Assembly (NCBI GenBank): GCA_039621445.1
Contig: CP154954.1
Span: forward strand, 8,682,634 to 8,746,633
From: Euglena gracilis
Taxonomy: Eukaryota
Length of the DNA stretch: 64,000 bases
Direction: 5' to 3'
This document shows, piece by piece, positions 30,649 to 60,755 of the stretch. The notes under the pieces were generated by a model that was given only the letters and a program-made list of their open reading frames with translations, was not told the DNA's origin and did no database searches. Position 1 is the first letter of the stretch; each line of letters starts with the position of its first letter. Position numbers and translations under genes: made by a program.

Positions 30649-30680
<32 letters not shown>

Positions 30681-35043: not shown

Positions 35044-35077
<34 letters not shown>

Positions 35078-35335
35078 CATACATACATACATACATACAT
35101 ACATACATACATACATACATACATACATACATACATACATACATACATACATACATACATACATACATACATACATACATACATACATACATACATACAT
35201 ACATGCATGCATGCATACATACATACCTACACACATACATACGTACATACATACATACATACATACATACATACATACATACATACATACATACATACAT
35301 ACATACATACATACATACATACATACATACATACA

Positions 35336-35369
<34 letters not shown>

Positions 35370-35451
35370 CATACATACATACGTACATACATACATACAT
35401 ACATACATACATACATACATACATACATACATACATACATACATACATACA

Positions 35452-35485
<34 letters not shown>

Positions 35486-38400
35486 CGTACGTACGTACGT
35501 ACGTACGTACATACATACATACATACATACATATATACATGCTTACATACATACATACATACATACAGAGATACATACATGCATACATGCATGCATACAT
35601 ACATACATACCGTGCTTTGTTTTTCTGAGCTAATTTTCAATAAATGTTGGTGCGGGGAGGCTGGGGAAAGGTGCCCCCCTGGCCATGGACCGCCCCCACC
35701 TCGCGCGACTGCGTGATCAGGACCTGGTCACTGTCAACATCGATGACAGCTTCGATGCCAAAGACCTGCTGGGCAACTACATTTGCGGTGATCCCAGTGG
35801 CCCTCACCCCCCATGTTTGTGGTAGATCTTCGTTGGTCGATGCACAAACATATAGAGAGAGATATGTTGGTGATGATGATGATTTACACCAATCTAGAAA
35901 AGAGAATGTGTCTTCATGTGTGGCATGAATGTGATGCTTGCAAATTTAAACTTTATTTCCACCTTGTCCGCAGCGGCACATGTTCAACGCGTCTGCATAC
36001 CTGCATTCATGTTTTTGGGTGGGTGTGTGGGTGGGGTGCATGTGTGTACAAATCCACTTGTGTGGAGTGTGCTCGCCATCTTCCATTTGTCATTCCCGGC
36101 CCCTGATGGGACACCCCGAGAGACGCTGGGCGGGCCGACACCCCCGGCACGTATGTGCTGCAGGCAGGGCCCCTCGCGACGGCGGTCCGCGCCGGGCGGT
36201 GGATCGTCATCGAGGACATCGACCTCGCCAGCTTCGACCTCCTCTCCGTCCTCATCTCCCTCATCGACACCGGCGCCCAGGGCCAGCCCATGCGGGCCAG
36301 TCCCCATAGCCCTGCCCCCCCCATCCAGATGCCTGCAAATAAAAAACGAAAGCAAATTCAAAAAAAATTCGCTTTCACACTCAATTTTTTTTGTTTTGGG
36401 TGTTCCCCCATTGTCTCGGTGGCCAGACACCTAGTCACCACACCTGGTGACGCATCACAATTTTGTTGGGGTGTTTTTTTGCTGCCGTTTGCAACTTTCA
36501 CCCGTTTCACCCCCGTGACAGTCACTCCTGAACGCCGCAGGCGAGGGGCGAGGGGTCTGCCCTGCGAGCAACCTCACCGTGCAGGACCGCGAGATCCCGG
36601 TCCGGCCAGGCTTCCGCCTCTTCGCCACGCAGGCGCTCGGCAGCAGCACCACCGCCACCATGAACCGCACCAAGGTCCCTACCCCATCCCTTGCCATCTC
36701 CCCAAGCTTCCTTTTCCGGCACAGGCGAGCGACAACATGCAACGTTATATATGATGCAGGGCGTTCCGTCTTCTCTTTTGGGCACCATTGTTAGTTGCTG
36801 GCTGTGTTTATTTTCTTATCTTTTCTTTGTCAAGGTCACGAACTCACACCGAAACCCTGCTCAATTTCGAACCTTGAGAGTTTGTCCACTGTTTTCCAGC
36901 CTTTTTTAACTTTTATTAAATTGAAAGTTGAAAGATGGAACTTTTGTTTGGAACTTCCATCTTTCTTCTGGATTTCACTGTTGGAATTGATTGTACAGTT
37001 TGGCGGCCCAAAACGGGGCGCTGGCGGGTCGAAAAACGCTCATTTTCGGCTCAAAAACAGTTTTTCCGGGTCCGGGAGACCGAAAAAACATCGTTTTGGG
37101 CAAAAAAAAATTTCGATTTTTTCGACTTTTTTGACCCGGTTTTGAGCGTTGATGGTTTTGATGGTGTGATGGTTTCGATTGTGCATTTTAATTGTCTTTA
37201 GCCAACGATCATTGTGCTGCTTTGTTCAGGTCCTTTCCTCTTTTAACAAATGGGGCCACAGTCGGGCTCTGGCATGGAGCCTTGTGCCGCAAAGTGATGT
37301 TGGCTTCACTGTGACGGATATTTATGTATTATTTTTTTAATTTTCGGTCTGCAGCCGTTTCAATGCATCCCCATCGCAGGTGATGGTTTGTCACCAATAT
37401 ACCGCTCTCAGTTTAGCTCAAGTGACACGCTGGGGTTGTATATGGTTATATATATACATATATATACATATATATACATATATACAAAGATATATATATA
37501 TATATATACATTTGATCATACATGTGGTTTATACATATGGTTATATATTTTATTTATTATTTATTTATATATTTTATTTATTATTTATTTATCATCATAT
37601 ATATGTATATACATAAACAGACACACACACACACACATATACATACATACACACACAAACACACACACACACACACACTTACATATTATACATATCATTG
37701 GAAACTTAAAAAAATTACAGGGAAGTGGGATATGGATCGAGCGCTTCGGGTAGTCAATGACCAAGACCTCCGGCTCCCCGAGGTCACGACCGGCGGCCAG
37801 GACCCGGAGTCGTCGTCATCTACAGCCTGTCGCTGGCGGAGATGGCGGCGGTGGTGGCGGTGCAAAACCCGGCCATCCCCCGCCGCTTCGTGTCCCACTT
37901 CCTCAACTCCCTCGCCCCGCCGCCCACGGTGCCGCGGGTGGCCGGCCACGTTTGGGGGGCCTGCGGGTGCTCGCCCATGCTTTTCTCGGTCGAGGATATA
38001 TATTCACCGTGCCACCCCCCGGAGGGTGTGATGCAAAACGGGGGTGCGGGGTGCAGGAGGGGGTCTCCCCCCACCTGGACCAGGAGGGGCGTTCCGGATT
38101 ACCTGCCTCGAGCCGAAAATTGGTCGTGCGGTGTCCCCAGTCCCCCCTCCCTGGTCCGACCCCCCATTTACCCTATATCAAGCCCTGCCCGGGATTGGAG
38201 ACCTGGGTGGGGGAGTTGGTGGTCCCTGTGGGGTGCTGAGAGGTCTTACAAAAAAAAGTTGCATGAAGTTGCCGGAAGAGTTGATAGAATTGATCCCCCC
38301 CCTGTCGATGGGTGGGTTCTGCCGACCCCCCCCCCCCAACGACAGCCAGAAACAGCCTTTCAGTGTCGGAAGCCCCCCCCATAGAGCTCTTGGCCTGGCT

Positions 38401-41400
38401 GCTGTTGGCCGATGTTGTCTGATCCTGTGGGCTGCGGCCCCCAACGAGCTGGCCGCCACGCAGCTTCGGTTCCGGCTGGCGCTGCGGGACGTGCTGAAGT
38501 GGGGGCGGCGCGTCGCACGCGCGATGCCCCGCATGCACTTCAACGAGACGGGCTCAGGCTTCTTTTTTTGTTTTTAACACAGAAGAACCCTGCCCTCCGG
38601 GGGGAGAGGTGGTGGCGGGTCCATGGTCGGAGGTCTGGGAATAGGTTTCGGGCAGAATTTTTTTGAGAATGTTCTTGTACCGTCTGAGTTTTGGGAGTCT
38701 TGTGCTGGGCCAAGTGTGGCTCCCCCACCTCCGGGGGGGTCTTAAACCAAAGCCTGGATGGGCTACATCCCCAACACGACGCGGGTCGCCCTCTTCGAGG
38801 AGACGGTGGACTCGTTCTGCTCGTGTCTTCCCCCACAGGAGTACCACGCCCTGGCGGCTGGATTTGCCGGCAAGCTGGAGGTGTTTGCTCGTTTGTTCAT
38901 TTGTTTGTTTGTTTCTCCCATTTTGCATACACACGGGTTTCTCTCTGTGGTGTGACGGCTGGGTGACCCCACAGAATAATTCCGTGCGAAAATGGTTGTC
39001 GTGGTTGCCTGCAGTCTGCATAATGTTATTTGTAATTTTGTGTTTGGTTTTTACTTCCATATGGATGTATTTGGTTTGCGTATATTTTATGTAGTTGCAA
39101 TCCAATTCTCATACCAAGATAATTTATCTTGTTTTAGTTTCTTAACCACCCATGCCTGTGCGCTTTAGCGCAACGTTTCTGACAATTTTGAGATCTGTTA
39201 AAGGTTACAGTGCGGACAAAAATTACGGGAAAAAATGACAGGGAAAAAAATACAGGAAAAGATTTTGGGACAATTTTTATTTTGGAAAAATTTTGTTTTG
39301 GGAAGATTTCTGTTTTATTCAGTATCAAAAAGCAATGGTGGCCAGTTGTGTGAAGTGATCCGGGACAGAATAAATTGTTTCCTCCCAGATTTTTTCCAAT
39401 GGAATCTTTGGCACTGCCACGTGCAATCCTCGATGAAGTCGAAGCATCTCAAGGACATCCACAAACTTGAGATGACAACTACACCAAGGTTGTTATGGAT
39501 TGGGCCCGGCAGTTTAGCATTTTATCCCATTCATTAGTTCTTTTCTTCGTCATCCACAACCATTCCCGAAAGATGTGCAGCAATGTGAGCATTTCTAGCC
39601 TGTGCTCAACCTGCCAATAACCGCTCTGTTGTCGGTAAGTTTGGAAAGTCTCACAAAAAAGCCTGACAGAAGTAATGCAGGCGACATTGCAGCCGGAAAC
39701 CCTCCATCCCTGTGAGTGTGGCGAGCACACCGCTCGAAAATGTGTGATCTGCAACTACCATGTGTGTGATGGCTGTTTCCCTGACCATTCATCTGTAGTT
39801 TGCCCTTCGTAGACCATGGACAGTGTCCATGTCCTTCGATGACGCTTCGCTTTGCCTTGGCTCAAAGGAAACATTACGGTGTAAAAATTTTTTAGGGCTT
39901 TCCCAAAATTTTCGTTCCCCGTAATTTTTGTCCGGGCTTTAATGGCAATGAAATCGAAATTTTTTGCATCTAATTATCCCTGATTGCCCTCTGTGAATAA
40001 ACAAGCAATCGCTTTTAGGGCAGAAGTGATGTTTAATTATTTAAACCCTCCCCCTGTTGAAGCAACCTTTTCTTTACATTTGGGTTTCACCCATTTCCCC
40101 AAGTGGTTGCTCAGACTTGGGTTTGGTTGGAAACGTTGAAGGCAGCTGAATTCGGACCAAACCGTTGGTAAAAAAAATAAGTTTCGTGTTCCAATGAAAG
40201 GGGGGGGGGTGTATTTTGTATTTAGTATTTTGCATATTTCAAAAAGTATGCCTTTCCATACCAGTCTCAAACGGTGATCATTGAAGACCAGGCATTCAAA
40301 ATTGTTCACCACACTGGCATTGCTTGCCAGTGTCAGTTCGTTTTAGTCTTTCACTGGCTGATTTGTGAGGTGACAGGTTCACGGAGGGTCAGGGGATGTG
40401 GGCTGGATATGAGGGGAGACAGGGAGCAAAGAAGACAAGCACCAAGCATACCACGTCTGAGCCGACCTGAATGCATGGACTCAAACATGTTTTAACGTGC
40501 ACTACCGATCCCAAAATCCTGCAACATCCCGATCCCACAGATCCCGGATGCCGCAGCACGAGAGTTTTTTCCGATCCTTTCCGACTTTTAGGGATGCAAA
40601 ACTGAGAGGCAGTCACGACGTGACGCGTGACCATGGCCCAGGTCTTTTGAAACAGCCGCAATGCAGCCCCCAAACATGATGGCCACACGCATCATGCGTG
40701 ATTTCCGCCACGACACCGGCCCCCAAAAAGCCCCAAAACGAAAGTCACACGCGTCACGTGTGACTTCCGCCGCAACACCCGCTCCCCCCAGGTCTCCTCC
40801 GACGCCCTGGTCTACTTCCTCACGCTGCGGAAGCCGCAGTTCCGCCTCACCGACGGCCAGGTCGAGGTGGGCCGCGCGGTGCTGCCCCGCCTCGCCGCCA
40901 GCCGCCCGGCGGGGACCCTCTTCGCCCCGACGCGGACGTGCCTGACCCTGATGGAGTCCATCATGGTGGCCGTCGGCGGCGGCGAGGCGCTGCTGCTGCG
41001 CAGGGCCCCCGCCGACGTCGGGCAAGCAAGTCGGATGCTCTTTCTTCCTCGACCGCTGGGGGGAGTGTTACTGTGACAGCCGTCCAACGGGGGGGTGTGC
41101 GTTTTTTGTCGATTGCGACAATTCTTGCCGAATCGAATTTTGGTTTTGCATTTTTTTGAATGTTGATTTCCTTCAAATTTTGGTGCCGCAGCCCTCGTTT
41201 GTCATTGGTGGCAGATGCTTCCACATACAGGGAAACCCACACAGACCAGGCAATATTTTTGAAGGCAAAAATGATCAAAACTAAGCTTTTTAAGGCGTTT
41301 TTGAGGTTTTTTTTTAAAGGTTTTTTAGGCATTTTCAAATTCTTAAGAAGTTATGCCTCACACAGACCAGTGCTGTGTTCTTGGTACAGCCTGTCCGCAT

Positions 41401-44400
41401 TTGAACGGCGTATTTTCTGAGATAAACACGTGCCAACGTCTGGGACGTGTGTCCACTTCACACAGGTCGCTGTATTTAAATAAAATTTGATTTGTACTCG
41501 GATTCATTTTTTTTTCACACGCTGCACCCGTGCTGGTCTCACTGGTGGCCCTGGGGCCGACCGGAGAGACAGGCATTGGCAAGACGTTCGTCATCCAGAG
41601 CGTGGCCACAATGGTGGGGGCGACCATGAACGTGCTCAACCTGAACCAGCAGTCCGGCTCCTCGGACTTCATGGGCGGCTTCCGGCCGCTCGACATCCAG
41701 CTGTTGGCCCGGCCGTGGGGGCGTGCCGGTGGGGGCTGTCGAATTACACACACATAGATGGGGATATAACACATGGTCTGTTTATCGTTTAATGAGAATC
41801 ACACAAAGACACCCAGAAGACCATTTTGTCCATATTTTGGAGTTTTAAGTTGTTTTTTTTGCCAGAAAAAAAAGTGCATTACAAGTGGGAAAAATCAACG
41901 TGCTCGAAGTTGATGGGGTTGTCTTTCTGAATGTCTCAGAAATGTCTGGAGGCTGCCAAACAGAATACACAAATGAAGGAAGCAGTGCCAATTATCCGGA
42001 AGAATACCAATTATATGGGTTTCAGCAGGAATGCATCCTTCCCACACAGCAATATTGTTTGCCTCTTCTATCATCTTTAAAGAGCTTGTGTTGATGTGGT
42101 GGATTGTTGGGCCGCGGTGAGAATTTGCCCACAAAAGAGCGAAAAAAAAGATGGTCGAAGAAAAGATTTTGGCAATGTTTCTGGTAGGTTCCCAGGTAAA
42201 ATTCTTAATCATTCAATCTGTTGCTGGCGGGCAATCTGAACAGTAATTCCTCTTAAATCCAGCAAGGATATTCCTGGTTGCTCTGAAAAGACCTTCAGTT
42301 GTCCAATCTTCAACACGTGCGAACAGCAAATTCTCGACAGCTTTGGGCTGGTCATTTTGGTGCTTCGATGCATGGATGCTCCCCCCACCTTGAGCTTGGT
42401 GCAGGGAAGGGAACTGCATGGTGTTGCAGGTATTGCATGGTGTTACACACACACGTTTTCAAAAAAGGGGGGGCAGTTATTCCCCGCCCAAGCCGAGAAT
42501 GGCAAGTCTTTGGGATCCCTGGTCTGTCAGGGGACAATAACTTCGTGGGGTAATTAGGTGGGTTTGATTTGATTTGATTTGATTTGATTTATTTTGAAAT
42601 TTAGTAATTTTGGTTTTGTCAGTTGGCGCCCCTCCCTCTGATCGACGCCGCCACGCGGCTGGCCACTCCTCCACCGCTGGCGGCAGCTCTTCGAGCAAGT
42701 GTTCAGCCTCGCCAAGAACGAGGCGGTGCTGACCTCCGCGGAGACGTTTTGCAGCGACCGCCGGTGGGCCTTGTTGGTGGAGCTCTCCCCACGCGGCTGC
42801 CTGCCTTGTCTGCCTAACTGAGCTCTGGCTATGCATTTGATTGGGCGTTGGCTCCCACGCACATTTGTGAATGTTTGTGCGCACAAACATCGTGCGTGTG
42901 TGTTTTTGATCACGTGTACAATTTCTTTTTGCATCTCGTCGAAGTATTGATTCTTTTCGGGTTTAGGTTCTGATCCAGCAAAGTATTGTTCTCATGTGGA
43001 TCGTTATCGTTGCATTGTGCAACCTTGGCGGAGATAATAAATATTTGCTGTTTTTTTTCCAGTTGAGGTCGATATTTTTTTTTGCTCTTCTGGCTCTGCT
43101 TTTCTTTAAAACTCTGTTGCTTTGCTTGAAAGCATTGCCAATACAGTACATTTTATCCGTTGATGTATTTTTTATGAGCATTACAGCTATTTTTATGTTT
43201 CACATTAATTTATTTTATTGCTTTTGAAGCCACGCAGCTGGGTGGCCGGGGCAGAGCAGCGCTGCCACCGCGCTGAAGAAGCTCCAAAAGCCGCCGCCGG
43301 ACGGTGAGGAGCCGGAGGGGAAGGTGCCGAAGCGGCTGAAGAAGAAGAAGAAGGTGAAGGGCAGCGAGGGAAAGGTGGCGGAGTGGTTGGCCTTCCAGGA
43401 GGTGGCTTGCCTTCCTCCTTCCTGGTTCTGAGTTTCATTAGTCCAACCTACCGACCTATTTGTGCGACATTCATGCAAACACAAGTTGCGAGCCCATAAC
43501 CATAGTCTCGGATGTACACATATGCACAAATGAACACATCCAACCACACACCCACACACCCACACACCCACACCCACAGCACACCCGCACACACAACACG
43601 CGCACGCGCGCACACACTACACACACTTACAACACACGCATATGCACACATACACACAATTCATCACCACCAGACACACACACACACACACACAAACACC
43701 CACACCCACACCCACACCCACCCACACACACAGACACACAAACACACACACACACACACACACAAACACCCACACCCACACACGCACAAACCCTTCCCCC
43801 CCACAGGCGGTGGCGGAGTTCGACCGCAAGCAGCAGGCGGCGGCGAGCAGCTTCATCTTCCAGTTCTTCGAGGGGCTGCTGGTCCAGGCCTGGCGGCAGG
43901 GCTCGTGGCTGCTGCTGGACGAGATCAACCTCGCGGGCAGCAGCACTCTGGAGCGCCTCAGCGCCGCACTGGAGCCCAGCACCGGGTGGCCCTGTGTGTG
44001 TGTGTGTGTGTGTGCATGTGTATGTATGTGTATGTGTGTATGTGTGTATGTATGTGAATTTTTTTTGTATGTGTGTGTATGTATGTATGTTTGTATGTAT
44101 GTATGTGTGTGTGCGTGTGTATGTATGTATGTGTGTGTGAGCGTGTGTATGTATGTATGTATGTTGTGTGTATGTGTGTATATGTATTTATGTGTGTGTA
44201 TGTGTTGTGTGTGTATGTGTGTATGTGTGTGTGGTGTGTATGTGTGTATTTGTGTGTGCCGGTTTTCGGAGGCTAGAATGTGGCCTGGGGATTGGCTTGA
44301 CCCTGATGACTTGTGACCCCCAACCCCCATGGCTGCTGTACCTTGTCAAACATCAGCTCCGCAGAGTTTTCATGTTCATTCCGTTCAACGCTGTGCATTA

Positions 44401-45792
44401 TTGGCTCCATACCAACCCCACACCCAGGAAATTGTTCTCCCCGGGAAACTGTCCTGTAAACTGTACCCCCTTACCCGTCTTCATACGACCTGTCTTCTCT
44501 TCTTCTACCCGTTCATCTGTGTCCTAATTTTTTGAAATTTTTCAATTTTTTTTGTTTCCAAAAAAGGCAATCACCAAGGTTAAAAAATTTGTGAAAAATG
44601 CCTTCCCAGATTTTTTCGGTAGAAAAGGTAGGTATCTGACGCTTTTCTAGGTTTTTTCGGTGGGTATTTTTTTAGGTGTAGAAAAATCATTTTAGAAAAT
44701 GCCTTTTTTGTCCACTAGCCCAGACCTGCCCGGGAAACTGTCCTCTGTCACTGTTGCCGCTGACCTGTCCTTATAGGGCCTCTGTACCTGCTGACTGGTC
44801 TGGAGAAAGTTTCCAAGGGGGAGGGTAGTTTGTTTTCTCGTGGCTCTGTGAACTCTATCACTCTTTTGATTATTTTTTTCATGTTCAATGTTCACACCAG
44901 TTTTCACCCGTACACCAGTTCTCACCCATCCACCTGGCCCTGTTGTCAATGCAGCGTGGCACGCTGTACCTTTCGGAGCGGGGGGACACGGAGCCCATTC
45001 CCATGCATCCCAGAGGGGCTCGGCTTTCCATCGTTTAGGAATGCCCTTTCCAAACCAACCTATTTTCTCACACCAACCTACACGAAAGTTTGACTAGGTT
45101 GAAAATTTGAATCGGCTGTGGGTGACGTCTTCTACCCCCCCCCCAGGAAATATGTATATTTTCCCACCAAGACAAGACACGTGTTCTTCCAACCACAGGA
45201 AGGATGTGGTGAGTTCATCCCCGTCATGTGGTGGGTGGGCTGAGTGAGCGCCCTTTCGATATTTTGCGAAGAAGAAGGAGCAACAAAGAAGAAGCCCGAA
45301 AAATTTTGGATCCAAATTAGACACCCAAAAGTGGTCTCCTCAACCCCCCCCCACCCCCAGGCAGGCGTGAGTCGGTGCCAGGTCTTAAAAATAAAAGAAA
45401 AACAAATAAAAAAGTCAAAATAAACAAACAAACAAACAAATAAATAAAAATAAATAAAAATAAATAAATGAAATGAAATGGGAGTTGGTGACGCCGCGCC
45501 CCGGGCCAACTTCCGGCTGTTCGCATGCATGAACCCGCCCACCGACGTCGGCAAGAAGGACCTGCCCCCCGCGCTGCGGTCGCGGTTCACGGAGGTGTAC
45601 GTGCCGGACCAGCTGGACCGCACGGACGTTGCCATCGTGGTCCAGCACTACCTCGCGAACCTCACTGCCAGCCCGCCCGTCGACGACGTCGTCGAGTTCT
45701 ACATCCAGTGTGTCAAGGTGTGTACCGGGTCATGTCTGTGTGCGTGTGTGTGGTGTGCATGTGTTTGTGTGTGTGTGTGTGTGTGTGTGCAT

Positions 45793-45831
<39 letters not shown>

Positions 45832-46509
45832 CGCGCACGTGTGTGTGCGCGCGCACCTTGCAGGGATATATCTCCTTTTTTCTGCTGGCCAAGGTGACAG
45901 TGTGCAGTTTGTGGTGTAACAAGCTGGCGATTTTAGGCATTGCGTGCTTCTGCAGAATGTAGCCAGGGCATCACATTTACCTCTCAACGCCTCTCCGGGA
46001 ACCCGTCTCCTCTGCCAATCTTGTCGTCATGGCTGCCAACCATTTGCTCCCCGGCTTCCAGGCCAGCGCAACGCAGCTCACCGATGGCAACCCGTCCAAC
46101 CCCAAACCCCACTACACCCTGCGAACCCTCAGCGCCTCCCAGGCTGGTGTGGCATTGCCGCACTGGTTTCTGAAGCATTGATTTGCTTGGGGTTTGGACC
46201 GTGGCCAGAGTCGCCACTGCTGGGGATAGAAGGCACGTGGCATCATATATTAATATTTTGTTTACAGTTTACTCACTTGTCATTTCTGGCTTTCCATCAT
46301 CTCACCTCAACTGTCTGGGGTTGAGTTGGAGGAGCTTGCCCAAAATTGGATTGCAGATTAGTGCCCAAATAAGTGTCACCCCTGAGGGTCCAAAGCTTCG
46401 GTCTGATAATGTGCACACCCTGTGCACTTAAATGGGGGGTCATGGTCCCCAGTCAGGTCCCTCCACACACACACACACACACACAACACAGCACACAACA
46501 CACAACACA

Positions 46510-46540
<31 letters not shown>

Positions 46541-49500
46541 TATACACACACAACACACACACCAGCCTGCCGCCGCCCTGAATTTTACCCGGCTGGCCAT
46601 CGGGGTGTACGGCTTCCACGCCGCGCTGCAGGAGGGCATCCGCATGGCGTTTGGCACTCAGATCGCCCGCAAGTACCACCCGGTGTTGGAGGGGCTGACC
46701 GGGACTGGCCCGACTGTGATGCCGAGGCCAAAGTCATACACCGGAAGCAACGCGCTGGGATTAAATTTGTAAACAAAGCAAAGGAAAGGGGGATAAAAAA
46801 TGGCCAAGAAACAGAATGTGTCAAAGTTGGGTGGTCTGAATCAGAGGCTGGATAGTTTTTTGATCAAAAATCCCAAAAGGATGATGGATTTCGGGTTTTT
46901 TTTTAGAATGCCATTATATTTTTTTGGGGGATTGCAACAGGAAGGTAATAGGATAGGAAGATAATCCGAGAGGTTTTGGGAAGTATGCCAGACAAGCACC
47001 GCCCAGACGAGGGAGGTCAGCCTGTTGTGGAAATGGAAAGTGTTCTTTCCGCTCTGTGGCGGGGGAAGCGCCACAGTGACGGGTCCCGCGGGAGATCCGG
47101 AAGCACATTGTCAAGAACCCTCAGGCTCCTCCAGACTGCTCCCTGGCGCAGCCCTTCTGCCTGTCTTTCTTCCAATTTCACAGTGGGTTATTATGTTATT
47201 GCTACGCAACTATTTTGATTTTTAATTTCTTTGGGTGTGAATCTGGGATCAAAAAAACATTTCCCATAAATGGCCGACTATTTTATTAATTCTTCATGCA
47301 TTGTTTTCAAGCAATCGTAAAATATTTCTTGACTGATGAGTAAATGGATCGATGATGAGTGCCACGCGTCTGCTATGTTTTCCCCGATTGTTGTGCATTT
47401 TTGTCCTCCGTGCTCGGGGCTCTCTATTCATGTCTCCAAATATGGCAAAAAATCGATGCTTCCAAAATATCTCGGAAATGAAGAAAAATCAAAGAAAATG
47501 TCTGGAGACCTAAATAGAAACCCTTGGAACGCCCTATGTAACGTATTTTGATTTCCCCGTAACTCCCCGCCGAGCCCGAGATATGACCGCTCAAAACGGT
47601 ACGGGGCGGTGTGCTCACCCCCCCCCCCGGGACAGGCTGAGCGCAGCCCATCGCGGTGCCCAAGGCCCCCGGCCCCAACTTCATCGCATTCGAGCATATC
47701 TGGCTGGAGAAGGGGCCCCTCGAGGCGACCGTCAACACGAAGTACATCCTGACCCCCTCCGTGAAGGTCCGCGCGGCGCAGCATCGGCTGCATGTTTGGG
47801 AACAACTTTTTGGAGAATGCAGTTCTGGAGCACGTACCTACCCCCCCCCCCGGGAAATTGTTCTCCCCAGGGAACTGTCACCGAAGCCCAGTACTCGCTG
47901 ACCTGTCCTCATATGTTTCTGTGCTCGCTGACCTGACAGGTGACCGTTTCCTGGGGGGGGTAATGGTTGTCCTTTGGGCCCATGGAGGCCACATAACCGA
48001 AGCAAAATATAGATCCTGCCACAATGGCATGACTGTGTTGACTGAAGGTTGGTTTTAGGAAAATATCTAACATTTTTTATCCAGCATTAACTCAAAAATG
48101 AGTGATATTTGGTGTGATTGATACCGTTATGTGACGTAATAAGGGTTCAAGTCCTTTCTACCCCCCCCCCCGGGAAACTGTCATGCCCAAGAACCTGTCA
48201 GGGTTCCGCCCGGGAAGCTGAGGGTCCCTGGTACTGGTCAGTTCATCAGAAAAGGTAGTTGTCCGGGTCCCAGATACCGACCAATTTGTCAGGGTTTAAA
48301 ATTTTGCATTATTCGTTCACATTCGTGTGATCTACCTCCAAGGTTGTGAGTCTTGATCAAATTTGTGGCTATGTGTCCCATATCTTGTCATATGGCATGC
48401 CAAGTTCCCGAATTTTTGAGGGCCCGCCCGGGAACTGTCAAGGGCCATGCCCAAGAACCTGTCAGCGTCCCGCCTGGGAAACTGTCGGGTCCCTGGGACT
48501 GGCCAACCTGTCAGGTGACAGTTTCCCGGGGGTAGGTAATATTTTTTACCAATTTCGATTTTTGGTCATTTTAATTTTATAATAATATAATTAATTAATA
48601 TTAATATAACAATATAATTAATCACAATTCAGACCGTGGGTAGTCCGGTGCAAGCCTCCGGCCACTTCGCCCCCCGGATGCAGCGCCGGGGGCACCTCAC
48701 CAACCTGGCGCGGATCGTGATGGCGAAGCGGCCCGTGCTGCTGCAGGGGCCCACGTCCTCCGGCAAGACCAGCATGGTGGAGTACCTCGCCCAGCGCACG
48801 GGGCATCGCTTCGTCCGCATCAACAACCACCACAACACCGCCCGCCCCGGCCCTCAGCATCTGGGCCAGACCTGCCCCCCCCCCCCTGTCATTTTAGGAC
48901 CGTTCCAGTTCCAGATGACCGGCCACCTTGGAGTGCCGGCCTGGCAGTTGTCACCCAGGTTTGGACTCGCTGATTTGTCGGGTAACAATTCCTCGGGGGG
49001 GGGGGCGTTACCAACCTTGGCTGGCCGGTGCCAAAAGCACCTCCGTGATGTTCTTCTTCTCCTGGCCCATATTGATTGCCGTCCATACGCCGTCAAGCTC
49101 GCTCCGGCGCTAATTGGGTGTGCCGGGCCGAGATTCTGGCGTGAGTGCCGGAGGTGCAGCCTGACCTGCAGGAGTATTTCGGGACGTACATCAGTGACAA
49201 GCGGGGCAAGCTGTACTTCCAAGAGGGTATCCTGGTGGAGGCTTGCCGCAACGGGTACTGAACAGGCCGGGGCATCGGCGACGGCCTGATTCAGAGTGTG
49301 AGCTCCACACATCTTTATCCACGTTTCGTCATTTAATATACATATTATACATCCATATTATTAATTAGTACTATTAAAACAATATGCATGTGTGTATTAA
49401 TTTAATGTATTATGTATTAAACCTCTTCCACTGGCTGTTTTTTCGAATTGGGTTCCCAAGTATCGCACCTGGCGTCAACAAATGGGGCAAAGGCACAAAG

Positions 49501-52500
49501 GCACAGTGGCTTGAGAAGCATTTTATGGCGCAGAGGGGGGGGGAGTGTATGCTTGCCTGGGTTGTGGGACCCCAGGACACAATGTGACCAGCCGTCGCGG
49601 AGTTGGTCGAACTCAGCCTCTTGAAAGGTTTTCGCTGCTGCATTCGTACAGGGGGGAATGCATTTCGCATTTTTTTTCGCATTTTTTTTGTGTTTTTGCT
49701 CATTTTTGCGCTTTTTGCGTATTCTTTGCACATATTTTGGGCTTTTTTTTTCGCGGCCGGGTTAGCACATCCCCCCCTGACTTATGCAAAACGGCTTGGG
49801 AACCAGGATGACTTTTTTGGCGCAGAGGGGGGGGGAGTGTATTGTGGAAACCAGGACACAGTTTGACCAGACGTCGCAGGGTTGGTCGAATTCAGCCTGT
49901 TGAAAGGTTTTCGCTGCTGCATTCGCAGGGGGGGGGGGGATGCATTTTGTATTTTGCTTTTTTTTTGCATTTTTGTGCTTGTTTGCATTTTTTTTTGCAC
50001 ATGTTTTGCGCATTTTTTTTCTGGGGCCGGGCGACATTAGCAGACGGCTCGCAGTGGACATCCCCAACCCCGAGCCCCGCCTGCCCTCGGGTGGTGCTTG
50101 ACGAGCTCAACTTGGCCCCCTCAGAGATCCTCGAGGCGTTGAACCGGCTGTTGGACGACAACCGTGAACTGGTCATCCCCGAGACGCAGGCGGTGATCAA
50201 ACCACGCCCCCCGGTGCCCCTTTGATAGTGATGGTGCCCCGTGTAATGTCGTGCTGTATTCCAATGTAACAACTGAAGTGGGGTGTATTGGCCTGGATGG
50301 GGAAATCTTAGTTTGCAATTTCCGGTTTGTAATGTGGGTTGGTGATTTGGAGATGGGTCGGTGCGGCAGCCACTTTTTAGCCCCCCCCCCTTGCAGTTGG
50401 TGGACGTCACAGTGGTTGGCATTTCAGTAATATTATTTCATTCAAATGCTATTAAATTATTATTATTGTTATTTTCAAACTTTATTTATTTCAAATGTCC
50501 CGCCTGTTCAAAACACAACGTGTCGGTGGCATATCACATGCCCTGTGTTTTAACCCCAGAGCATTGCCTTGGGAAGGCGTGAGAGAGGAGCGGCATTGGC
50601 CACTTGGGGCGCCGGGGCCCACACCCCCACTTCCACCTCTTTGCGACACAGAACCCGCCGATGCTCTATGGCGGCCGCAAGGTGCTGTCCCGCGCGTTCC
50701 GCAACCGCTTCGTGGAGCTGCAGGTGGACGACATCCCCCACGAGGAGCTGCACGCCATCCTGGAGGAGCGCTACCGCCTCCCCGCCCGGCCATGCCCACC
50801 CTGTTTCTCGGCCAAAAAGCAAGTGTGACAGCATGAGAAAGCTGTTTCGGATTAGTGAACAAGCAAACCAAAAGTCTTGGTTTCAAATGAAATTTGCAAT
50901 GGATCATTTATATGGAAAAAACGAATGTGCATAGGTGTATGTGTGGGTGTGCACAGATATACACCATTTGCACATTCCAAAAACATGATCTTTGAATGCT
51001 CTTGTGGTGTATGAACGGAAACAAGTGGCATCATAATGGCGGCCCACGTCCGACTCTCCTGCCGCGAAAATTTTCCCATTTTCCTATTCCCGTTTCCTGA
51101 CAAGAAAAAAGCAGAAGTTGCGGAGAGAAGGTGGGGAGGCCGTGGCCAAGAGCTGGGTCAGCAAGATGATCCGGGTGATGGTGCACCTCCAGGTGCTGCG
51201 GCAGAACAGCCAGCTGTTCGCCGGCAAGCATGGCTTCATCACCCCGCGCGACCTGTTCAAGTGGGCCAGCCGCGGCCTCGGTTTCGCCCACCGGTTTGCT
51301 CCCAAAAAAGCAAGTAAGTCATTTCATCCCGAAATCAGCCTCCTGATTGAAGAAGACATTATTGAAACACACCGCCATCCATCTGTATATGAATTATCCG
51401 TGGGTATGCATCCACATCTGCAATAATCACGAAGGGTGCACTTTCGTGAAGGGTGGGGGCAGAATCAGGCAATGCCAAATGAATCAAATACTTGATGGAA
51501 ATGGGCATGCCAGAGGTTTCACAGCAGACCGACATGCCCCACAGCAAACACATATTATCATATTCATATTAATATTGGTATATATACGTATGTGCATGTG
51601 CATATGTGTGTGTTTGTGTGTATATGTATATATGTATGGCAGCTGCCTGCTACTCCCCCCCCCCCAGGGGGGAGCATGCTAAAACCCGGGTCCGACTTTG
51701 GGGGAAAGTCGGGGTTATTGTTTGGGATAGGGTTAAGGTTACGACCGGTATCCCGTCGGGCCCCCCTTTTCAAGAGTTTAGGGAGAAGTCAGGCCGCATT
51801 CGGGCAACGTTTAGGCAAAACGGGTTCCCAAAAATCTTCCCAAAGGGGAATCTACCTTTCGGCCTAGTTGCCCCCCCCCCAAATATAAAAACCCCCCGGT
51901 TTTATATTTGGGCGGAAATTTCAAGACCCCGAGGGGGGTTTTATATTGGGGGGGGTTATATTCGGTCGGAAAAATCAACTTCCTGGCAGGATCCAGTAGT
52001 CACTTTTTCGGTCCAAAATCACAAATACGCCCACCCTTGGGGTCCAAAAATTTCAGTTTTCAGGCAAAGGAGCAATTTTCACATGTTCTTGGTAAAAAGT
52101 GCACCCAAATCTGCCAAAAATCACAATTTCGGGAGAGATTTTGTCGAAAAATTTTCCTTCCGGTGCTTTGCGCCGGAGGGGGGGGGGTTATATTCGGGCG
52201 GGATTTCAAGGTCCTCAGGGAGGGTTTTATATTTGGAGGGGGGGGTTTGTATTTGGGGGGGGTTATATTTGGGGGGGGGTTACCCATTTTCATTATGCCA
52301 ATCCTAACCCTATTCTTAAAATTGCGCACGCATTCTCCCTGGATCGGCCAACGGTTTGCCTGAAAACGTCGTGTTTCCCGGGCGAAACGGACCGAAAAAA
52401 ATACGAGAAGTCGGACGTGGGTGTCACCCCCCCCCCCTGATTACTACTCGCTGTCCCGGGGGCAAGCAGTAGGTAGCTGCCATATGCATATGTATTTTTG

Positions 52501-55500
52501 TGTGTACATGCATGTATGTATATACACAGCATACACGCTATATGTATGTGTGAGTGTTTGCACATTGTATATGTTTTATGCACATGGACATGTCTTTTTT
52601 GTATGGTTTCGTGTAAATACTCCAGATCGCAAGGAGCAAGCGGGTGCCCCCATCGAGGACCTCGCCCACCACGGCTTCATGCTGCTCGGCGAGCGGTGCC
52701 GGCGGCCGGAGGAGCGGGCGGTGGTGCGCCAGACGCTGGAGAAGGAGTGCGGCGTCGTGATCGACGAGGCGCGGCTGTACGACTGCTTCGCCAACCCGAC
52801 GCTGAAGCCGCTGCTGGACCGCATGGCGGCCGTGAAGGACACACAGGGCGGCCCCCGGGCGATGGGGGGCCCAGCCCGCGCGTCGGGACAAACGTCCTGC
52901 CGTTTCTCTGAGGCCGTCCGCTTGAAGCGCCAACCGGCTGGCTGTCAGGTGGGAGAGTGAAGTTGAAAGGCCTCCATGGGGGACAGATGGCGTAGAGTAG
53001 AGTACCCCACAGTGCTCCACAGTACTTCACAGTATTCCACAACACCCCCCACCCCCCCACAGACACATACCCCCCACAGACCCCACACTTAAGTGCGGGG
53101 GCTCCGTTTTATATCATATGTGCCCCGGGAGGCTGACATCTCCGATTATCCCGGCTGATTTGGGGGGTATTCTCCACCCACGGCGGCAACAGCATGCTCT
53201 CCACCTGGGAACTCAATTCCGGCTTGGCCACTCCTGTGGTGACTTGGGGTTGAGCGTGCCGCTCTGCCGGCCGACAGCTCACTGAACGCCCTGGTGTGGA
53301 CCCACAGCCTGAAGCGGCTCTTCTCCCTCGTCGGGTGGTGCATGCACTTCGACGAGCCGTTCGTGCTGGTCGGGGACACGGGCGGCGGCAAGACCACCAT
53401 CTGCCAGCTGTACGCCGCCCTGACCGGACAGCAGCTGTCCATCCAGGCTTCTTTTTAAGTCACCTGACCCCCCCCCCCCCCCCCCCGGGGGGGGGGGTGG
53501 GTCCGGGCCGGACTCCCCGGGGGGGGGGGTCCCGCGCCGGAGGCGCCGGGTATACCTTTTTGCCGCGAAGCGCCGAAATTTTTTGAAAATTGCCTTTAGC
53601 GGGCCCGATTTTGGGGGGGTCCCCGCCCCCCCCCCCCTGGGGGGTTCCCGCGCCACCCTGGTTGGGTGGGGGGGGCCCCCCCCTCCCCCCCGGGGGTCTT
53701 AAAAAGAAGCCTGTGTCCATCGTCAACTGCCACCAGCACAGCGAGAGCTCCAGGGACGGCGGTGTGGAGCCCCCAAACTTGGTGATGCGAGCCCCCCCCC
53801 CCCAAACTCTGGCCCAGTCTACTGCATGGATCAGATAGTCCGGATATTAAATATTTTTCAAAAGAGTAATTAAAAGGGAAAAAAAAGAAATAAAATCAAA
53901 ATATATGAACGTTTAATAAAATTGTAAATCATAAATTGTAAATAAACATAAACAAATTTAAGTATATAAATAATTCAAATAATTATAAATTCTGAAAAAA
54001 ATATAAACCTGAGTGTAATATAAATCAAAGATGTTTTTGATCTCTACCAATGGGAAACGGTCCATCAGGCATGCGTCCATTTGTCAGGACTGGCTGGCCA
54101 CCCGGCCAACGTCAGGGCCGGGCCACACCGCCGTGGGGCCGACTTCCTCGGGAGCCTACGGCCCGCCTCAGCAGAACTGGCGGCCCAGGGCAAACTGTTC
54201 GCATGGGCGGACGGCCCGCTGGTGACCGCCGTCCGGGGCGTGCCTTCTTCGGCTGCCAAATTTTGCCCATCAAGAGAGATGTATTTGAAATCGCGCTTTT
54301 TGCATAAAATATTTTGCCCTGGAAAAATTTTTTGTAGTTGGTCGCCAGGCCTGGGGTCTTTGATATTTTCACCCTGTTAAAAGGCAGCTTTGCAGAGGAG
54401 TGAATTTTTTCCGAGTTTGTTATTGTCATTTCAGCTTCCATCGTGGCCGACAGTCAAGAGGAATCAATTCTGGAAGGAGGTTTGGTGGACGAGGGTGAAG
54501 TACCCCCTGAAGAAGAAGAAGAAGAAGAAGAAGAAGAAGAAGAAGAAGAAGAGGAAGACTCACCTCAAAAGAAGAGGAAGTTCCATTATGGAGCGAAGTC
54601 AACTCCAAGCTCCCGTACATATTCCGGCTCCAAAAAACGTGTGGAAAAACGTGGGTGGAGCCAGAATATGCTGCCGTTGCAAGCAATTCCCATTTGGTAC
54701 ATTTGAAGTCCGGGGTGAGTCAATGTGGTGTGTGGCTTGCCTGAAGCTTGCTTAGACTGAACGTGCAGGTGCCATCCATGTCGATTTTCAACGCTTCAGT
54801 GTTTGCCATTGTCTTCCAGGAGGTCGTCTTTGTGAATCATTGACAGGTACACCGGCATTGTCACATGTTTTCGGATTTTGGGCAGCAAAACTCTGTTATA
54901 TTCCTGCATTTTCTCAGGGGTTTTATGCAAGTTGCATTTTTTTGCATTTTTTTTGCATTTTTTTTGCATTTTTTTTGCTTTTTTTTTGACTTGCATAATT
55001 TGAAGGGCCAAGTTGCATATCCTCCCCCTAGACCATGACACCGCAATGGCGAGACGTCGCCCTGGGGCCATGAAGCAGGGGTACCACTTCATGCTCGACG
55101 AGGTCAACCTCGCGGAGGACTCTGTCCTGGAGCGGCTGAACTCCGTCTTCGAGAGCGGCCGCACCTTGACCCTCCCTACCCAGCCCCAGCCGGAAGCGAA
55201 AGCCATCTCGATCACTCTTCTCCGTTCAAGAGAGGAGGTGTGGTGGCCCCCTTCATCGATGTCTCTTTCATCCAAATATATACCGACGTATCTGGGCACA
55301 AACAAACAAGCTTTATCCAAATGGCATCAAATCAAGGCTGGCGTCCACGTCCGTGAGGGCCGAAAACCTACGCCGGGACAAAACAGATTTGCAGTCAGAA
55401 TTCCTCCTCTCCTGCCCTCCCCACCCCCGTGAACCTGCCCTACCTGGTAACCTGCAGGGCCGTACACCAAACTGTCAGAGTCCCTCCCTGTCCTGGGCCA

Positions 55501-56624
55501 ACCTTTCATCACGCGAAGTTTTTTTTTCACGTGAATTTTCTTCACGCGAATTTTTTCTCATGCAATATTTTTTTCACCCAAAATTTTTTTTTCACGCGAA
55601 GATTTTTTTTTTTAGGTCCCCGGTATTGACCAGAAGAAGAGGCAGCACAACCGGGACTTGGGCTGCCCCCGAGAAGGGCAGCCGCAAGGTGCAGGAGCTG
55701 ACGGCGCACCCCGCGTTCCGTGTGATGGCCACCATGAACCCCGGCGGCGACTTCGGCAAGAAGGAGCTGTCCCCCGCGCTGCGGAACCGGCTGACGGAGA
55801 TCTACGTCCCATCCTCGCTGTGGCCTCTTTGCAGCACTCGGGTCCGAGAGAAGAGGACCCCACATAACTCGAAATGTTCGGGTAATGATTGGTGGAAATC
55901 ACCAGCTCACCAATGCAACGTGAAAGGTGCGCAGGGGGGGGATTGATGTCCGCAATTTTTTCCGCAATTCCCACAATTTTCCGCAGTTTTCCGCAATTTT
56001 TTCCCTTTCCAAAATTTTCCCATGAGCCTGAGATGGAAGAAGGCAAAATGAGTTTCAGCCATTCCTTGAACCTTTCACAAGCGAACCCAGGTGCTTTTTT
56101 TCATTGTTTTTTTGCAAGTTTGCCAAATTTTAAAATTTTTGACAAAATTTGGCAATTTCTGGGCCTTTTAGGGTTTCTGCCTGATTTTTGCTGGAAATAA
56201 TTTCGACTGAGAAAAATTTCGCATCCTGGACCAGATTTTACCGGATACCAAAGTTTTTGGTCTATTTTTGGATTTTTGACCCAAGAAATTCCGTATTTCC
56301 AATGCTTTTGGACCTTTTTGTTGCAAAAAAAAAAATGTGCGCAATGGCTCAAAATTTACACCTATATTGCAAAATGACCGAATTTGTAACCTTTTTCTAG
56401 TCCCCTCCAGTGGAAATGTGTACATTCCCGTTATCAATTTTTCCACAATTTTTCCGCAATTTTCCGCAATTTTCCACAATTTCGCAGGCCTCCAAGATCA
56501 ATTTCTCCCCTGGGTGCGTCCAGGATTTTCCCCCCAGTTTGTCCGAGAACAGTTTACAGCTGCACATGTTCCCATTCACGCGCCGGGCCCACCCCCCCCA
56601 CACCCCCCCCCCCACACACACACC

Positions 56625-56717
<93 letters not shown>

Positions 56718-59700: not shown

Positions 59701-60722
59701 AACCCACCGAAGTCGTCTGAAGGTGAACCAGACGACCGGAGTGCACCTCGCTGGCCTCAGAGTAGGACTTGAGCAGGCAAAAGGGCGCCTGCGGCGACAG
59801 GCCGGACCGAGTCCAATAGGACGTCAAGGTCCAAATAGTGCTGCACCCCCCGCTGCCGGAGGCGGCCGTCCAACAGTGCTGCAGTGCAATACTATTTGGG
59901 AGGGGGGTTTAGCTGTTGGTAACGGAGGGGGCTGGGCAGCAATCTCTTTGGGTTCTCTGAGAATCCTGCGGAGGACAATATGACGACGTTGAGCAAGAAA
60001 CATCCAAAGGTTTGGATGACGATCTTAACACTGACCCTCACCCTTAAAACACGCTCACCAATTACCGCGGCTGGCTGCGGCGGCACCTCCCACGGTTCCC
60101 CAGCCGCCCAAGTAGGGTGAATGCACATGGGGGGGGGGGGCTCGAACGATGCGTTGAAGACGCCGTGCGAGGGTCCACCGGTGTCCTGTTGGGACCAATT
60201 CATCGCGCAAATCCGTGCACATATTTTCCATCGCAAATCAGACTCCATGCAAAGTCATTGGTGGTTTTACAGTCTGGCCATGATCAGTCACGGCCTCCCA
60301 TGGCGCCACCATCCAGTATGGCATTCATCCTGTGTGACCCCTACCCCCTCGCCAATTTAGCAACCTTTGGGGCCAAACCAACTGACACCCAAATTAGAGT
60401 CTCCCGTGTGATGCGTTGGGAAAATGCAAAGGACATCTGAAACTCTGCACCATTTCGGCACCATTTAAGCAAGTTCGCAATTTTACGAGAAGGTGGATGG
60501 GCTGAACCCCAAATCAGAGCAACGGATTCCTTCAATTTGGGCAGTGGTGTTCATTTTTGAGGATGCACTGCACACCGTATGGTACCTTGTGGAGGCTCTC
60601 CCCCGCTGCATTGTGGGCTGAGCCTCTGGATGTGTCGATTATTTTTGATCAATGATCATATGCGGTATATGCATGTGCCTGCGTAAAATGTTTGCATGGA
60701 TGGGTATATATATATATATATG

Positions 60723-60755
<33 letters not shown>

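What the first reader, a model, noticed from the sequence alone, without database searches (positions are those of the whole stretch)
38547..38764. One element family seeded two introns of different age in the same gene
This intron starts CAGGCTTCTTTTT and ends GGGGGTCTTAAACCAAAGCCTG. These ends match the pristine 53444-53713 element (…GGGGGTCTTAAAAAGAAGCCTG), but the TIR is decayed and the TSD is 7/8. Similar right ends occur near 8425-8439 and 9652-9666. This suggests an introner family active over time.
Basis: partly seen in the sequence, partly recalled or inferred. Interest (0 to 1): 0.72.

Follow-up and report, generated by a model that had tools for sequence, protein, structure and literature searches.

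The report
Transposon-derived unconventional introns in midasin gene
Two short mobile-DNA insertions with matching ends interrupt one large gene of a Euglena-type alga and have exactly the end signals that this group uses to cut out its unusual introns, a concrete example of an already proposed way in which such introns are born.

Summary
Element A (38555-38756, flanks GACGGGCT/GATGGGCT) and element B (53444-53713, perfect 16-bp inverted ends, perfect 8-bp duplication TGTCCATC) both sit in coding exons of one midasin gene on the + strand.

Both fit the published Euglena nonconventional-intron code, N3-CAG...CTG-N5|purine. The two spacers, 3 + 5, add up to the 8-bp target duplication. Splicing by that code therefore removes the element plus one duplicate copy and restores the reading frame.

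- **B:** the exact-excision product fits 147 of 147 long midasin homologues better than an inner GC-AG alternative.
- **A:** support is weaker: 84 better, 37 equal, 26 worse.
- **Same family:** A and B share about 13 nt at the left end and 28 of 35 nt at the right end. Their cores show colinear similarity (0 of 500 shuffles reach the score), but overall identity is only 63%.
- **Other copies:** the same ends occur at 8191-8439 and 9651-9666, where no coding signal was found.

No genome was available for a family census.

The idea that these introns come from MITEs, with TSD-like repeats, is already published. This scan also noted the same phenomenon earlier on other DNA of this genome (e1-7358313, e1-7360881). 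I rate this a new member of a known kind, of moderate interest.

The parts
35634..62746 (+). Midasin (MDN1/Rea1-type AAA+ ATPase) gene. It has many exons and continues beyond the window on at least one side.
   Evidence: tblastn with P0002 and P0001 gives colinear exon hits from 36137 to 61670. A search with the exon at 45484-45723 found 1535 proteins at E<=0.001, and the top hits are 4000-6000 aa long. PF17867 Midasin AAA lid scores 55.4 bits against a cut-off of 22.7 at 61847-62746. AAA_5 fragments appear in six exons.
38552..38761 (+). Inferred nonconventional intron A, 210 nt. It consists of a 3-nt spacer GCT, element A, and a 5-nt spacer GATGG. The next exon starts with G.
   Evidence: It fits N3-CAG...CTG-N5|R (code from PMC12501133). 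An in-frame stop follows at 38575-38577, because the upstream open frame ends at 38574. The junction ..NETG|YIPN.. is spanned by single alignments to midasins P0010, P0022, P0014 and P0003.
38555..38756 (.). Element A, a 202-bp decayed MITE-like element.
   Evidence: The left end is CAGGCTTCTTTTT. The right end matches B's right end at 28/35 positions. Only 7 contiguous inverted-repeat bases remain, and 9/12 ungapped. DNA contig depth is 56-70, the same as single-copy flanks.
38547..38554 (.). Left copy of A's target-site duplication, GACGGGCT.
   Evidence: It matches 38757-38764 at 7/8 positions.
38757..38764 (.). Right copy of A's target-site duplication, GATGGGCT.
53441..53718 (+). Inferred nonconventional intron B, 278 nt. 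It consists of a spacer ATC, element B, and a spacer TGTCC. The next exon starts with A.
   Evidence: One search finds this as the only frame-preserving solution with 14/14 paired ends and an 8/8 repeat. The product ..QQLSI|VNCHQH.. is colinear with homologues without an indel, and scores higher than the inner GC-AG form in 147 of 147 midasins. None of the nine equivalent registers gives GT-AG, GC-AG or AT-AC (read).
53444..53713 (.). Element B, a 270-bp MITE-like element with a perfect 16-bp TIR, CAGGCTTCTTTTTAAG.
   Evidence: The ends form the closing helix in both the MFE and the centroid fold, with z = -3.8 and 0 of 200 shuffles folding as well.
53436..53443 (.). Left copy of B's target-site duplication, TGTCCATC.
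   Evidence: It is identical (8/8) to 53714-53721.
53714..53721 (.). Right copy of B's target-site duplication, TGTCCATC.
8191..8439 (.). Element C, 249 bp. It has the same right end (GGTTAAAAGAAGCCTG), a left end with a deletion (CAGGTTTTTAAGG), and flanks GTGTGATC/GTGGGATC (7/8). No coding signal was found around it.
   Evidence: None of the 13 open frames scanned in 1-10 kb has a Pfam match. Its interior resembles D, not A or B.
9637..9666 (.). Orphan right end, GGTTGTTAAAACAAAGCCTG. No left partner was found.
914..1219 (.). Element D, 306 bp, a related subfamily. Its TIR is CAGGCTTGTGCTTA (13/14), its right end reads ..AAGCATG, and it has a perfect 8-bp duplication, GCCTCGAC.
   Evidence: Its interior is similar to C (score 50 against 14.1 +/- 2.3 in shuffles). 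That test used a D stretch that began 9 bases inside the true left end.
5990..6186 (.). Truncated relative of D. The left end is CAGATTTGTGCTTAGTCGGGT and the right end is missing.

Best explanation
A and B are non-autonomous DNA transposons (MITE-like). They have 8-bp target-site duplications and termini that read CAG...CTG. Both inserted into coding exons of the midasin gene of a Euglena-type organism.

Euglena's nonconventional splicing cuts 3 nt before a 5' CAG and 5 nt after the paired 3' CTG. Because 3 + 5 = 8, the RNA loses the element plus exactly one copy of the duplication. The pre-insertion reading frame is restored, so each insertion was tolerated from the start as an intron.

A and B carry the same terminal sequences and a weakly conserved colinear core, so they belong to one end-defined family. 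B is little changed, with perfect ends and duplication. A is decayed: it has an indel and substitutions in its inverted repeat, a 7/8 duplication, and single-copy depth. They therefore probably inserted at different times.

**Shown:** the anatomy, the gene, the frame restoration, the homologue colinearity, and the shared ends.

**Inferred:** removal from RNA by the nonconventional pathway, transposition as the origin, and the relative ages.
For: - **Anatomy of the ends and duplications:**
- **Same gene:**
- **The code:** N3-CAG/CTG-N5-6|R was defined genetically in PMC12501133 (abstract and sections 5, 8, 11, 12 read). A has GCT-CAG...CTG-GATGG|G and B has ATC-CAG...CTG-TGTCC|A.
- **B, homologue fit:** the exact-excision product beats the inner GC-AG alternative in 147 of 147 long midasins, by a mean of 13.6 score units. 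In the 25 best tblastn rows, 18 alignments end exactly at 53443.
- **A, homologue fit:** 84 higher, 37 equal and 26 lower out of 147. The six best-aligning homologues all favour exact excision.
- **Retention is costly:** in-frame stops lie 20 nt into A and 12 nt into B.
- **Fold:** B's ends form a 16-bp closing helix.
- **Family, ends:** the left 13 nt are identical and the right end is 28/35 identical.
- **Family, interior:** the local score is 22 against 12.0 +/- 1.9, with 0 of 500 shuffles reaching it. For the core without 40 nt at each end, z = 8.0. The reverse-complement comparison scores lower, at 17 and 9. A or B against C or D are not significant.
- **Copies where no coding signal was found:** C, the orphan end at 9666, and D with a perfect 8-bp duplication.
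- **Expression:** the gene is expressed and spliced. One RNA-like contig joins 43402 to 43808.
Against: - No RNA read or contig covers the A junction. Only 12 and 9 reads of two RNA runs were laid on the 5.8-kb stretch, most of them on a repeat.
- A's ends do not pair in its predicted MFE fold (z = 0.13). Only a 7-bp CAGGCTT/AAGCCTG helix is possible.
- Overall A-B identity is 128/202, or 63.4%, in a gap-optimised global alignment. BLAST reports only the right end as significant (E = 0.002), and the interior at E = 0.64.
- Motifs such as CCCCCTGGGGG and GCCGAAATTTTT recur in other repeats of the window, for example at 29223-29365 (nhmmer E = 1e-4). Part of the core similarity may therefore be a genome-wide repeat flavour.
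- Dinucleotide shuffles do not preserve homopolymer runs, which can inflate z-scores.
- B's perfect TIR could be kept by selection for end pairing rather than by youth.
- No family member was recovered outside the window.
Confidence: 0.72

Rival explanations
1. A and B are independent nonconventional introns of unrelated origin. Their similar ends reflect convergent constraint from the splicing code (CAG/CTG plus end pairing) and low-complexity T/A runs, not a shared mobile family.
For: The code itself demands CAG/CTG and paired ends (PMC12501133). Another candidate nonconventional intron in this gene (49260-50088) also begins CAGGC and ends GCCTG. A-B interiors are only weakly similar.
Against: - The shared stretch goes far beyond the 3-nt requirement: 13 nt on the left and 28/35 on the right.
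- The 49260 intron shares only CAGGC.
- The same extended ends occur on C and on the 9666 orphan, where no coding signal was found and where splicing constraint should not act.
- Flanking 8-bp repeats of 8/8 and 7/8 are not required by the code.
- Core similarity is colinear and strand-specific, with 0 of 500 shuffles reaching it.
Confidence: 0.13
2. The elements are removed by the conventional spliceosome. It would use the inner GC...AG sites (CAG|GCTTCT ... AAG|CCTG) and leave 15 extra nucleotides (5 codons) in the mRNA.
For: Both inner-site versions keep the frame. GC-AG introns exist in Euglena (PMC12501133, section 5). For A, 26 of 147 homologues score the longer form higher.
Against: - For B, 0 of 147 homologues favour the 5-residue insertion, which would fall in the conserved ..L-x-I-(I/V)-N-C-H-Q-H.. 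stretch.
- GCTTCT is a poor donor (inference).
- A has the same ends as B, so the same pathway is the simpler reading.
Confidence: 0.07
3. The insertions are not spliced at all. This midasin copy is a pseudogene, or an allele broken by transposon insertions.
For: No RNA read covers A. Both elements carry in-frame stops.
Against: - Exons stay open and colinear with homologues over about 26 kb.
- An RNA-like contig shows this gene spliced at 43402->43808, and stranded RNA reads fall on exon bins.
- Both insertions meet every sequence requirement of the code, including the purine.
- A has decayed while its flanking exons kept their frame.
Confidence: 0.05

Closest known systems
Euglenid nonconventional introns (Nomura et al. 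2025, PMC12501133; Milanowski et al. 2014, PMC3935182, and 2016, PMC4770533)
   Same: - The borders are non-canonical.
- CAG sits at +4..+6 and CTG at -8..-6.
- The spacers are 3 nt and 5 nt, and the next exon starts with a purine.
- The ends can pair.
- Direct repeats lie at the junctions ('slidable' introns, 84% in E. agilis).
- A MITE origin is already hypothesised.
   Different: Here the transposon anatomy is still intact (a perfect 16-bp TIR and a perfect 8-bp duplication) and is shared with copies where no coding signal was found. The 8-bp duplication equals the sum of the two spacers. I did not find that link stated in the passages I read or in my searches. The supplements of these papers were not opened.
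Introners of algae, dinoflagellates and fungi: transposon families that create spliceosomal introns (review PMC11282704, passages read; Huff et al. 2016, cited there and in PMC11170887)
   Same: A repeated non-autonomous DNA element with TIR and TSD lands in exons and is removed from RNA. Part of the target duplication ends up inside the intron.
   Different: Introners are cut by the spliceosome at GT/GY-AG sites, which the element or the duplication supplies. These elements have no canonical dinucleotides in any register. They depend on the separate Euglena pathway, whose machinery is unknown and which releases circular introns according to PMC11282704.
hAT-superfamily non-autonomous elements, such as the maize Ds insertion that behaves as an intron (Giroux et al. 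1994, cited in PMC3935182; hAT features recalled, not from a call)
   Same: An 8-bp target-site duplication, and short TIRs that begin CAG and end CTG.
   Different: No transposase was found in the window, and the genome could not be searched. The recalled hAT target consensus (nTnnnnAn) is not matched in full by any of the five duplications read here. Superfamily assignment is therefore open.

Membership tests
Euglenid nonconventional intron (code 5'-N3CDG...CH'GN5-6|R) | No GT/GC-AG or AT-AC borders in any register that gives the required mRNA | tested here: met
   For B, the nine equivalent registers begin TG, GT, TC, CC, CA, AT, TC, CC, CA and end TG, GT, TG, GT, TC, CC, CA, AT, TC. For A, the six equivalent registers begin GG, GG, GC, CT, TC, CA and end AT, TG, GG, GG, GC, CT. 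These are read.
Euglenid nonconventional intron (code 5'-N3CDG...CH'GN5-6|R) | CAG three nucleotides into the intron, complementary CTG followed by 5-6 nt, and a purine as the first exon base | tested here: met
   A reads GCT-CAG...CTG-GATGG|G. B reads ATC-CAG...CTG-TGTCC|A.
Euglenid nonconventional intron (code 5'-N3CDG...CH'GN5-6|R) | Intron ends base-pair and bring the splice sites together | tested here: inconclusive
   B has a 16-bp closing helix in the MFE and centroid folds, z = -3.8. In A the ends are not paired in the MFE (z = 0.13), and only a 7-bp helix is possible.
Euglenid nonconventional intron (code 5'-N3CDG...CH'GN5-6|R) | Actually absent from mature mRNA, and released as a circle | tested here: inconclusive
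   Two raw RNA runs and one RNA-like contig set were laid on 37700-43500. No read lay on the bins around A. Support is indirect: homologue colinearity of 147/147 for B and 84/37/26 for A.
MITE (non-autonomous class II transposon) | Terminal inverted repeats | tested here: met
   B 16/16, D 13/14, A 9/12 ungapped.
MITE (non-autonomous class II transposon) | Target-site duplication of fixed length | tested here: met
   All are 8 bp: B 8/8, D 8/8, A 7/8, C 7/8, and 3150-3571 7/8.
MITE (non-autonomous class II transposon) | Many copies in the genome | not testable with these tools
   No genome is held. In the window there are A, B, C and one orphan right end (9651-9666) with these ends, out of the 7 matches to the 16-mer. 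The remaining match, 39650-39665, lies in a different high-copy repeat. The metagenome scan found 0. DNA depth over A equals the single-copy level.
hAT superfamily | 8-bp TSD and termini of the CAG...CTG type (recalled definition) | tested here: met
   The definition comes from memory, not from a call.
hAT superfamily | Autonomous partner encoding a hAT transposase with the same ends | not testable with these tools
   No transposase domain appeared in the 33 open frames scanned across. The genome is not available.
Introner (spliceosomal, transposon-generated intron family) | Removed by the spliceosome at canonical or near-canonical sites | tested here: not met
   No canonical dinucleotides occur in any exact-excision register. 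The inner GC-AG alternative is rejected for B by 147/147 homologues.

The most novel reading that the evidence does not exclude
The Euglena nonconventional splicing code could be the RNA-level mirror image of one transposon superfamily's anatomy. The ends CAG...CTG plus an 8-bp duplication match the 3 + 5 nt spacers. Any new insertion, in either orientation, would then be born as a precisely removable intron.

On this reading, the bulk of Euglena's nonconventional introns (about 72% of all introns in E. agilis) descend from this superfamily. Pristine copies such as B would mean that intron gain is still going on. The unknown excision machinery may have co-evolved with, or been derived from, the transposon.
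Probability: 0.4. Interest if true: 0.8.

Novelty: new member of a known kind. Interest (0 to 1): 0.5.

Why it matters
Where new introns come from is a long-standing question. Euglena is extreme, because most of its introns use a non-spliceosomal code whose origin is called 'unclear' in the 2025 paper that defined it.

A gene with one pristine and one decayed insertion of the same end-family shows the proposed path from transposon to intron in three stages. The third stage is the copies where no coding signal was found.

The arithmetic of 3 + 5 = 8 explains why such insertions are harmless on arrival. It also explains why most Euglena introns have 'slidable' direct repeats.

This gives a directly testable model. 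One could census the family, find its transposase, and knock a fresh copy into a reporter exon.

Tried and rejected
- **RNA evidence.** No RNA holder was listed for the stretch searched. I laid two raw RNA runs of the same species label, one RNA-like contig set and one DNA contig set on 37700-43500.
- **Metagenome scan with B's 22-nt right end.** 0 matches.
- **Midasin exon against metagenome contigs.** This returned only two distant loci at 49% identity, which are no use for an orthologous-site comparison.
- **Protein search with an open frame through B, as a proxy for other copies.** No hit at E <= 0.01 among 414 candidates.
- **Earlier notes by sequence.** No look-alike was found.
- **First guess of a dinoflagellate or algal introner.** I dropped this once the Euglena code was seen to fit.
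- **nhmmer profile of A plus B on the window.** Beyond A and B themselves, it gave one interior-only match at 29223-29365 (E = 1e-4). Other hits had E >= 0.005, including B's own reverse strand. The result was too weak to define more members.
- **P0001, a 226-aa predicted protein of a relative (77% identity).** It stops being colinear within a few codons of the B site. Without its DNA I cannot tell whether the relative has an intron there, so I draw no conclusion on B's age from it.
Full report
**1. The observation**

- Element A spans 38555-38756 (202 bp). It begins CAGGCTTCTTTTT and ends GGGGGTCTTAAACCAAAGCCTG. It is flanked by GACGGGCT and GATGGGCT, a 7/8 match.
- Element B spans 53444-53713 (270 bp). 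It has a perfect 16-bp terminal inverted repeat, CAGGCTTCTTTTTAAG, and a perfect 8-bp flanking repeat, TGTCCATC.
- The 16-mer with up to 3 mismatches occurs 7 times in the window against 0.44 expected, and 0 of 100 shuffles reach 7. The hits are both ends of A, both ends of B, and right-end-like hits at 8424-8439, 9651-9666 and 39650-39665.
- A stricter census asked for CAG...CTG pairs with at least 7/8 flanking repeat and at least 9/12 inverted ends. It returned 3 elements (A, B and 3150-3571) against a mean of 0.5 in 30 Markov simulations.

**2. The gene**

Open frames on the + strand from 35.6 to 62.7 kb encode successive pieces of a midasin (MDN1/Rea1) AAA+ ATPase.

- tblastn with a 1233-aa midasin fragment (P0002) and a 226-aa relative (P0001) gives colinear hits from 36137 to 61670.
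- An 80-aa exon finds 1535 proteins at E <= 0.001, and the best are 4000-6000 aa long.
- PF17867 'Midasin AAA lid' passes its cut-off at 61847-62746.

A lies between the first and second AAA modules. B lies just after the P-loop of the fourth module and just before the conserved ..NCHQH.. stretch. The claim of 'same gene' holds.

**3. What kind of intron**

Notes from this scan on the same genome (e1-7360881, e1-7358313) pointed me to Euglena and to Nomura et al. 2025 (PMC12501133). I read its abstract and sections 5, 8, 11 and 12.

That paper defines the nonconventional-intron code genetically as 5'-N3-CDG ... CH'G-N5-6 | R. The 5' spacer must be exactly 3 nt. The 3' spacer is best at 5 nt. 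The first exon base must be a purine.

Both elements fit.

- A reads exon..ACGG | GCT CAG...CTG GATGG | GCTAC...
- B reads exon..TGTCC | ATC CAG...CTG TGTCC | ATCGTC....

The point that ties the transposon anatomy to the splicing rule is arithmetic. The element begins CAG and ends CTG. The two spacers (3 + 5) add up to the 8-bp duplication. The code therefore removes the element plus exactly one copy of the duplication and restores the pre-insertion sequence. Because CAG...CTG is its own reverse complement, this should work in either orientation (inference).

None of the equivalent cutting registers gives GT-AG, GC-AG or AT-AC for either element (read).

**4. Are they really removed?**

Direct RNA evidence failed. 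I laid two raw RNA-seq runs of the same species label, one RNA-like contig set and one DNA contig set on 37700-43500. Only 12 and 9 RNA reads were laid, and none near A.

The gene is nevertheless expressed. Stranded reads fall on exon bins. One RNA-like contig joins 43402 to 43808. On inspection that joint is a conventional GT-AG intron, 43402-43806.

Indirect evidence is strong for B and moderate for A.

- I built the exact-excision product and an alternative that uses inner GC...AG sites, which would leave 5 extra codons. I aligned both to 147 midasins longer than 1500 aa.
- For B, the exact product scored higher in 147 of 147, by a mean of 13.6.
- For A, it scored higher in 84, equal in 37 and lower in 26. 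The six best-aligning homologues all preferred it and spanned the junction in one alignment.
- In the 25 best tblastn rows, 18 alignments stop exactly at 53443.
- Retention would truncate the protein. In-frame stops lie at 38575 and 53456.
- B's ends form the closing 16-bp helix of its predicted fold (z = -3.8).
- A's ends do not pair in its MFE (z = 0.13). Only CAGGCTT/AAGCCTG can pair.

**5. One family?**

*The ends.* The left 13 nt are identical. The last 35 nt are 28/35 identical. The same right end occurs on element C (8191-8439, flanks GTGTGATC/GTGGGATC) and on an orphan end at 9666. C and the orphan lie in 1-10 kb, where 13 of 13 open frames scanned have no Pfam match. No coding signal was found there, although that does not prove the region is intergenic.

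Another candidate nonconventional intron of the same gene (49260-50088) shares only CAGGC. The extended ends are therefore not simply what the code demands.

*The interiors.* The local alignment score of A against B without 20 nt at each end is 22, against 12.0 +/- 1.9 in dinucleotide shuffles (0 of 500 reach it). Without 40 nt at each end, z = 8.0. The reverse strand scores 17 and 9. A or B against C or D are not significant.

*Against a tight family.*
- BLAST finds only the right end significant (E = 0.002; interior E = 0.64).
- Global identity is 128/202, or 63.4%.
- G/C homopolymer and GCCGAAATTTT-like motifs recur in other repeats of the window.

I conclude that A and B belong to one end-defined family, probably mobilised by one transposase, but are very diverged or from different subfamilies.

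C shares its interior with D instead. D (914-1219) has a perfect duplication, GCCTCGAC, and a TIR of CAGGCTTGTGCTTA. This pattern suggests a superfamily with mix-and-match interiors.

**6. Ages**

B has a 16/16 TIR and an 8/8 duplication. The duplication includes the 3 + 5 nucleotides that lie inside the intron, where the published code constrains only length.

A has an 8-nt insertion and substitutions in its inverted repeat, and a 7/8 duplication. DNA-contig depth over A is 56-70, the same as the single-copy flanks, so no near-identical copies exist in that run.

This supports 'older A, younger B', but without calibration. Selection for end pairing could also preserve a TIR.

A relative's predicted protein (P0001) loses colinearity within a few codons of the B site. 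Without its DNA this cannot be interpreted.

**7. Comparison with what is known**

- The MITE-origin hypothesis for euglenid nonconventional introns dates from Milanowski et al. 2014 (PMC3935182, passages read).
- It is repeated, with 'TSD-like sequences', in a 2024 review (PMC11282704, passages read).
- It appears again in the discussion of Nomura et al. 2025. That paper also reports direct repeats at 84% of introns.

I searched for four things: a paper naming a repeat family, an 8-bp duplication, the 3 + 5 = 8 link, or a transposon superfamily. I found none (searches; word search). The supplements of these papers were not opened and may bear on this.

The combination of an 8-bp duplication and CAG...CTG ends recalls hAT elements. 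That is my recollection, not a tool result. No transposase is present in the window.

These are not 'introners' in the strict, spliceosomal sense.

**8. Verdict**

This is a real and well-preserved example of a known kind. The same phenomenon was already noted by this scan elsewhere in the same genome. The missing pieces are RNA junctions and a genome-wide census.

Noticed in passing
window 14600-27400: About 12.8 kb of a short-period tandem array with strong G-over-C and A-over-T strand bias. It is open for about 4000 codons on the minus strand and translates to repeats such as MLDKMQ / CWTRCR / DADAGQ.
   Followed up: no
window 30000-35610: About 5.6 kb of TACA-type microsatellite, (TACA)n with 152 copies at 35000-35610. 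It is interrupted by a repeated unit of about 1.3 kb and lies directly upstream of the first recognisable midasin exon.
   Followed up: no
window 39250-40030: A high-copy repeat lies inside the intron downstream of A. DNA contig depth reaches 7155 against about 65 for the flanks. Most of the few RNA reads laid fall here. It ends with a family-like CTCACAAAAAAGCCTG at 39650-39665.
   Followed up: partly
window 3150-3571: A further 422-bp element has CAG...CTG ends (CAGGGCTGTCGG / CAGGGCTGTGCC, 9/12) and 7/8 flanking repeats, TGGTTGGC/TGGTCGGC. Its end sequence differs, but its duplication has the same 8-bp length.
   Followed up: partly
window 914-1219 and 5990-6186: Element D has a perfect 8-bp duplication, but its right end reads ..CATG instead of ..CCTG, which would break the CAG/CTG pairing. 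A truncated relative lies at 5990-6186. Both contain the palindrome GGTGCCTGCTAGGGGCAGGCACC.
   Followed up: partly
window 43402-43806: This is a conventional GT-AG intron with a C-rich tract, verified by one RNA-like contig. The gene therefore mixes conventional and nonconventional introns, as reported for Euglena.
   Followed up: yes
window 38563: The DNA contigs show a one-base length variant in the T-run of A's left end (depth 70.5 of 118.3). This suggests allelic or strain variation inside the intron.
   Followed up: no
window 51190-53440 versus protein P0001: A relative's 226-aa predicted protein runs without a break across three exons. In this window those exons are separated by gaps of about 1.35 kb and 0.43 kb, so the relative may lack those two introns.
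   Followed up: no
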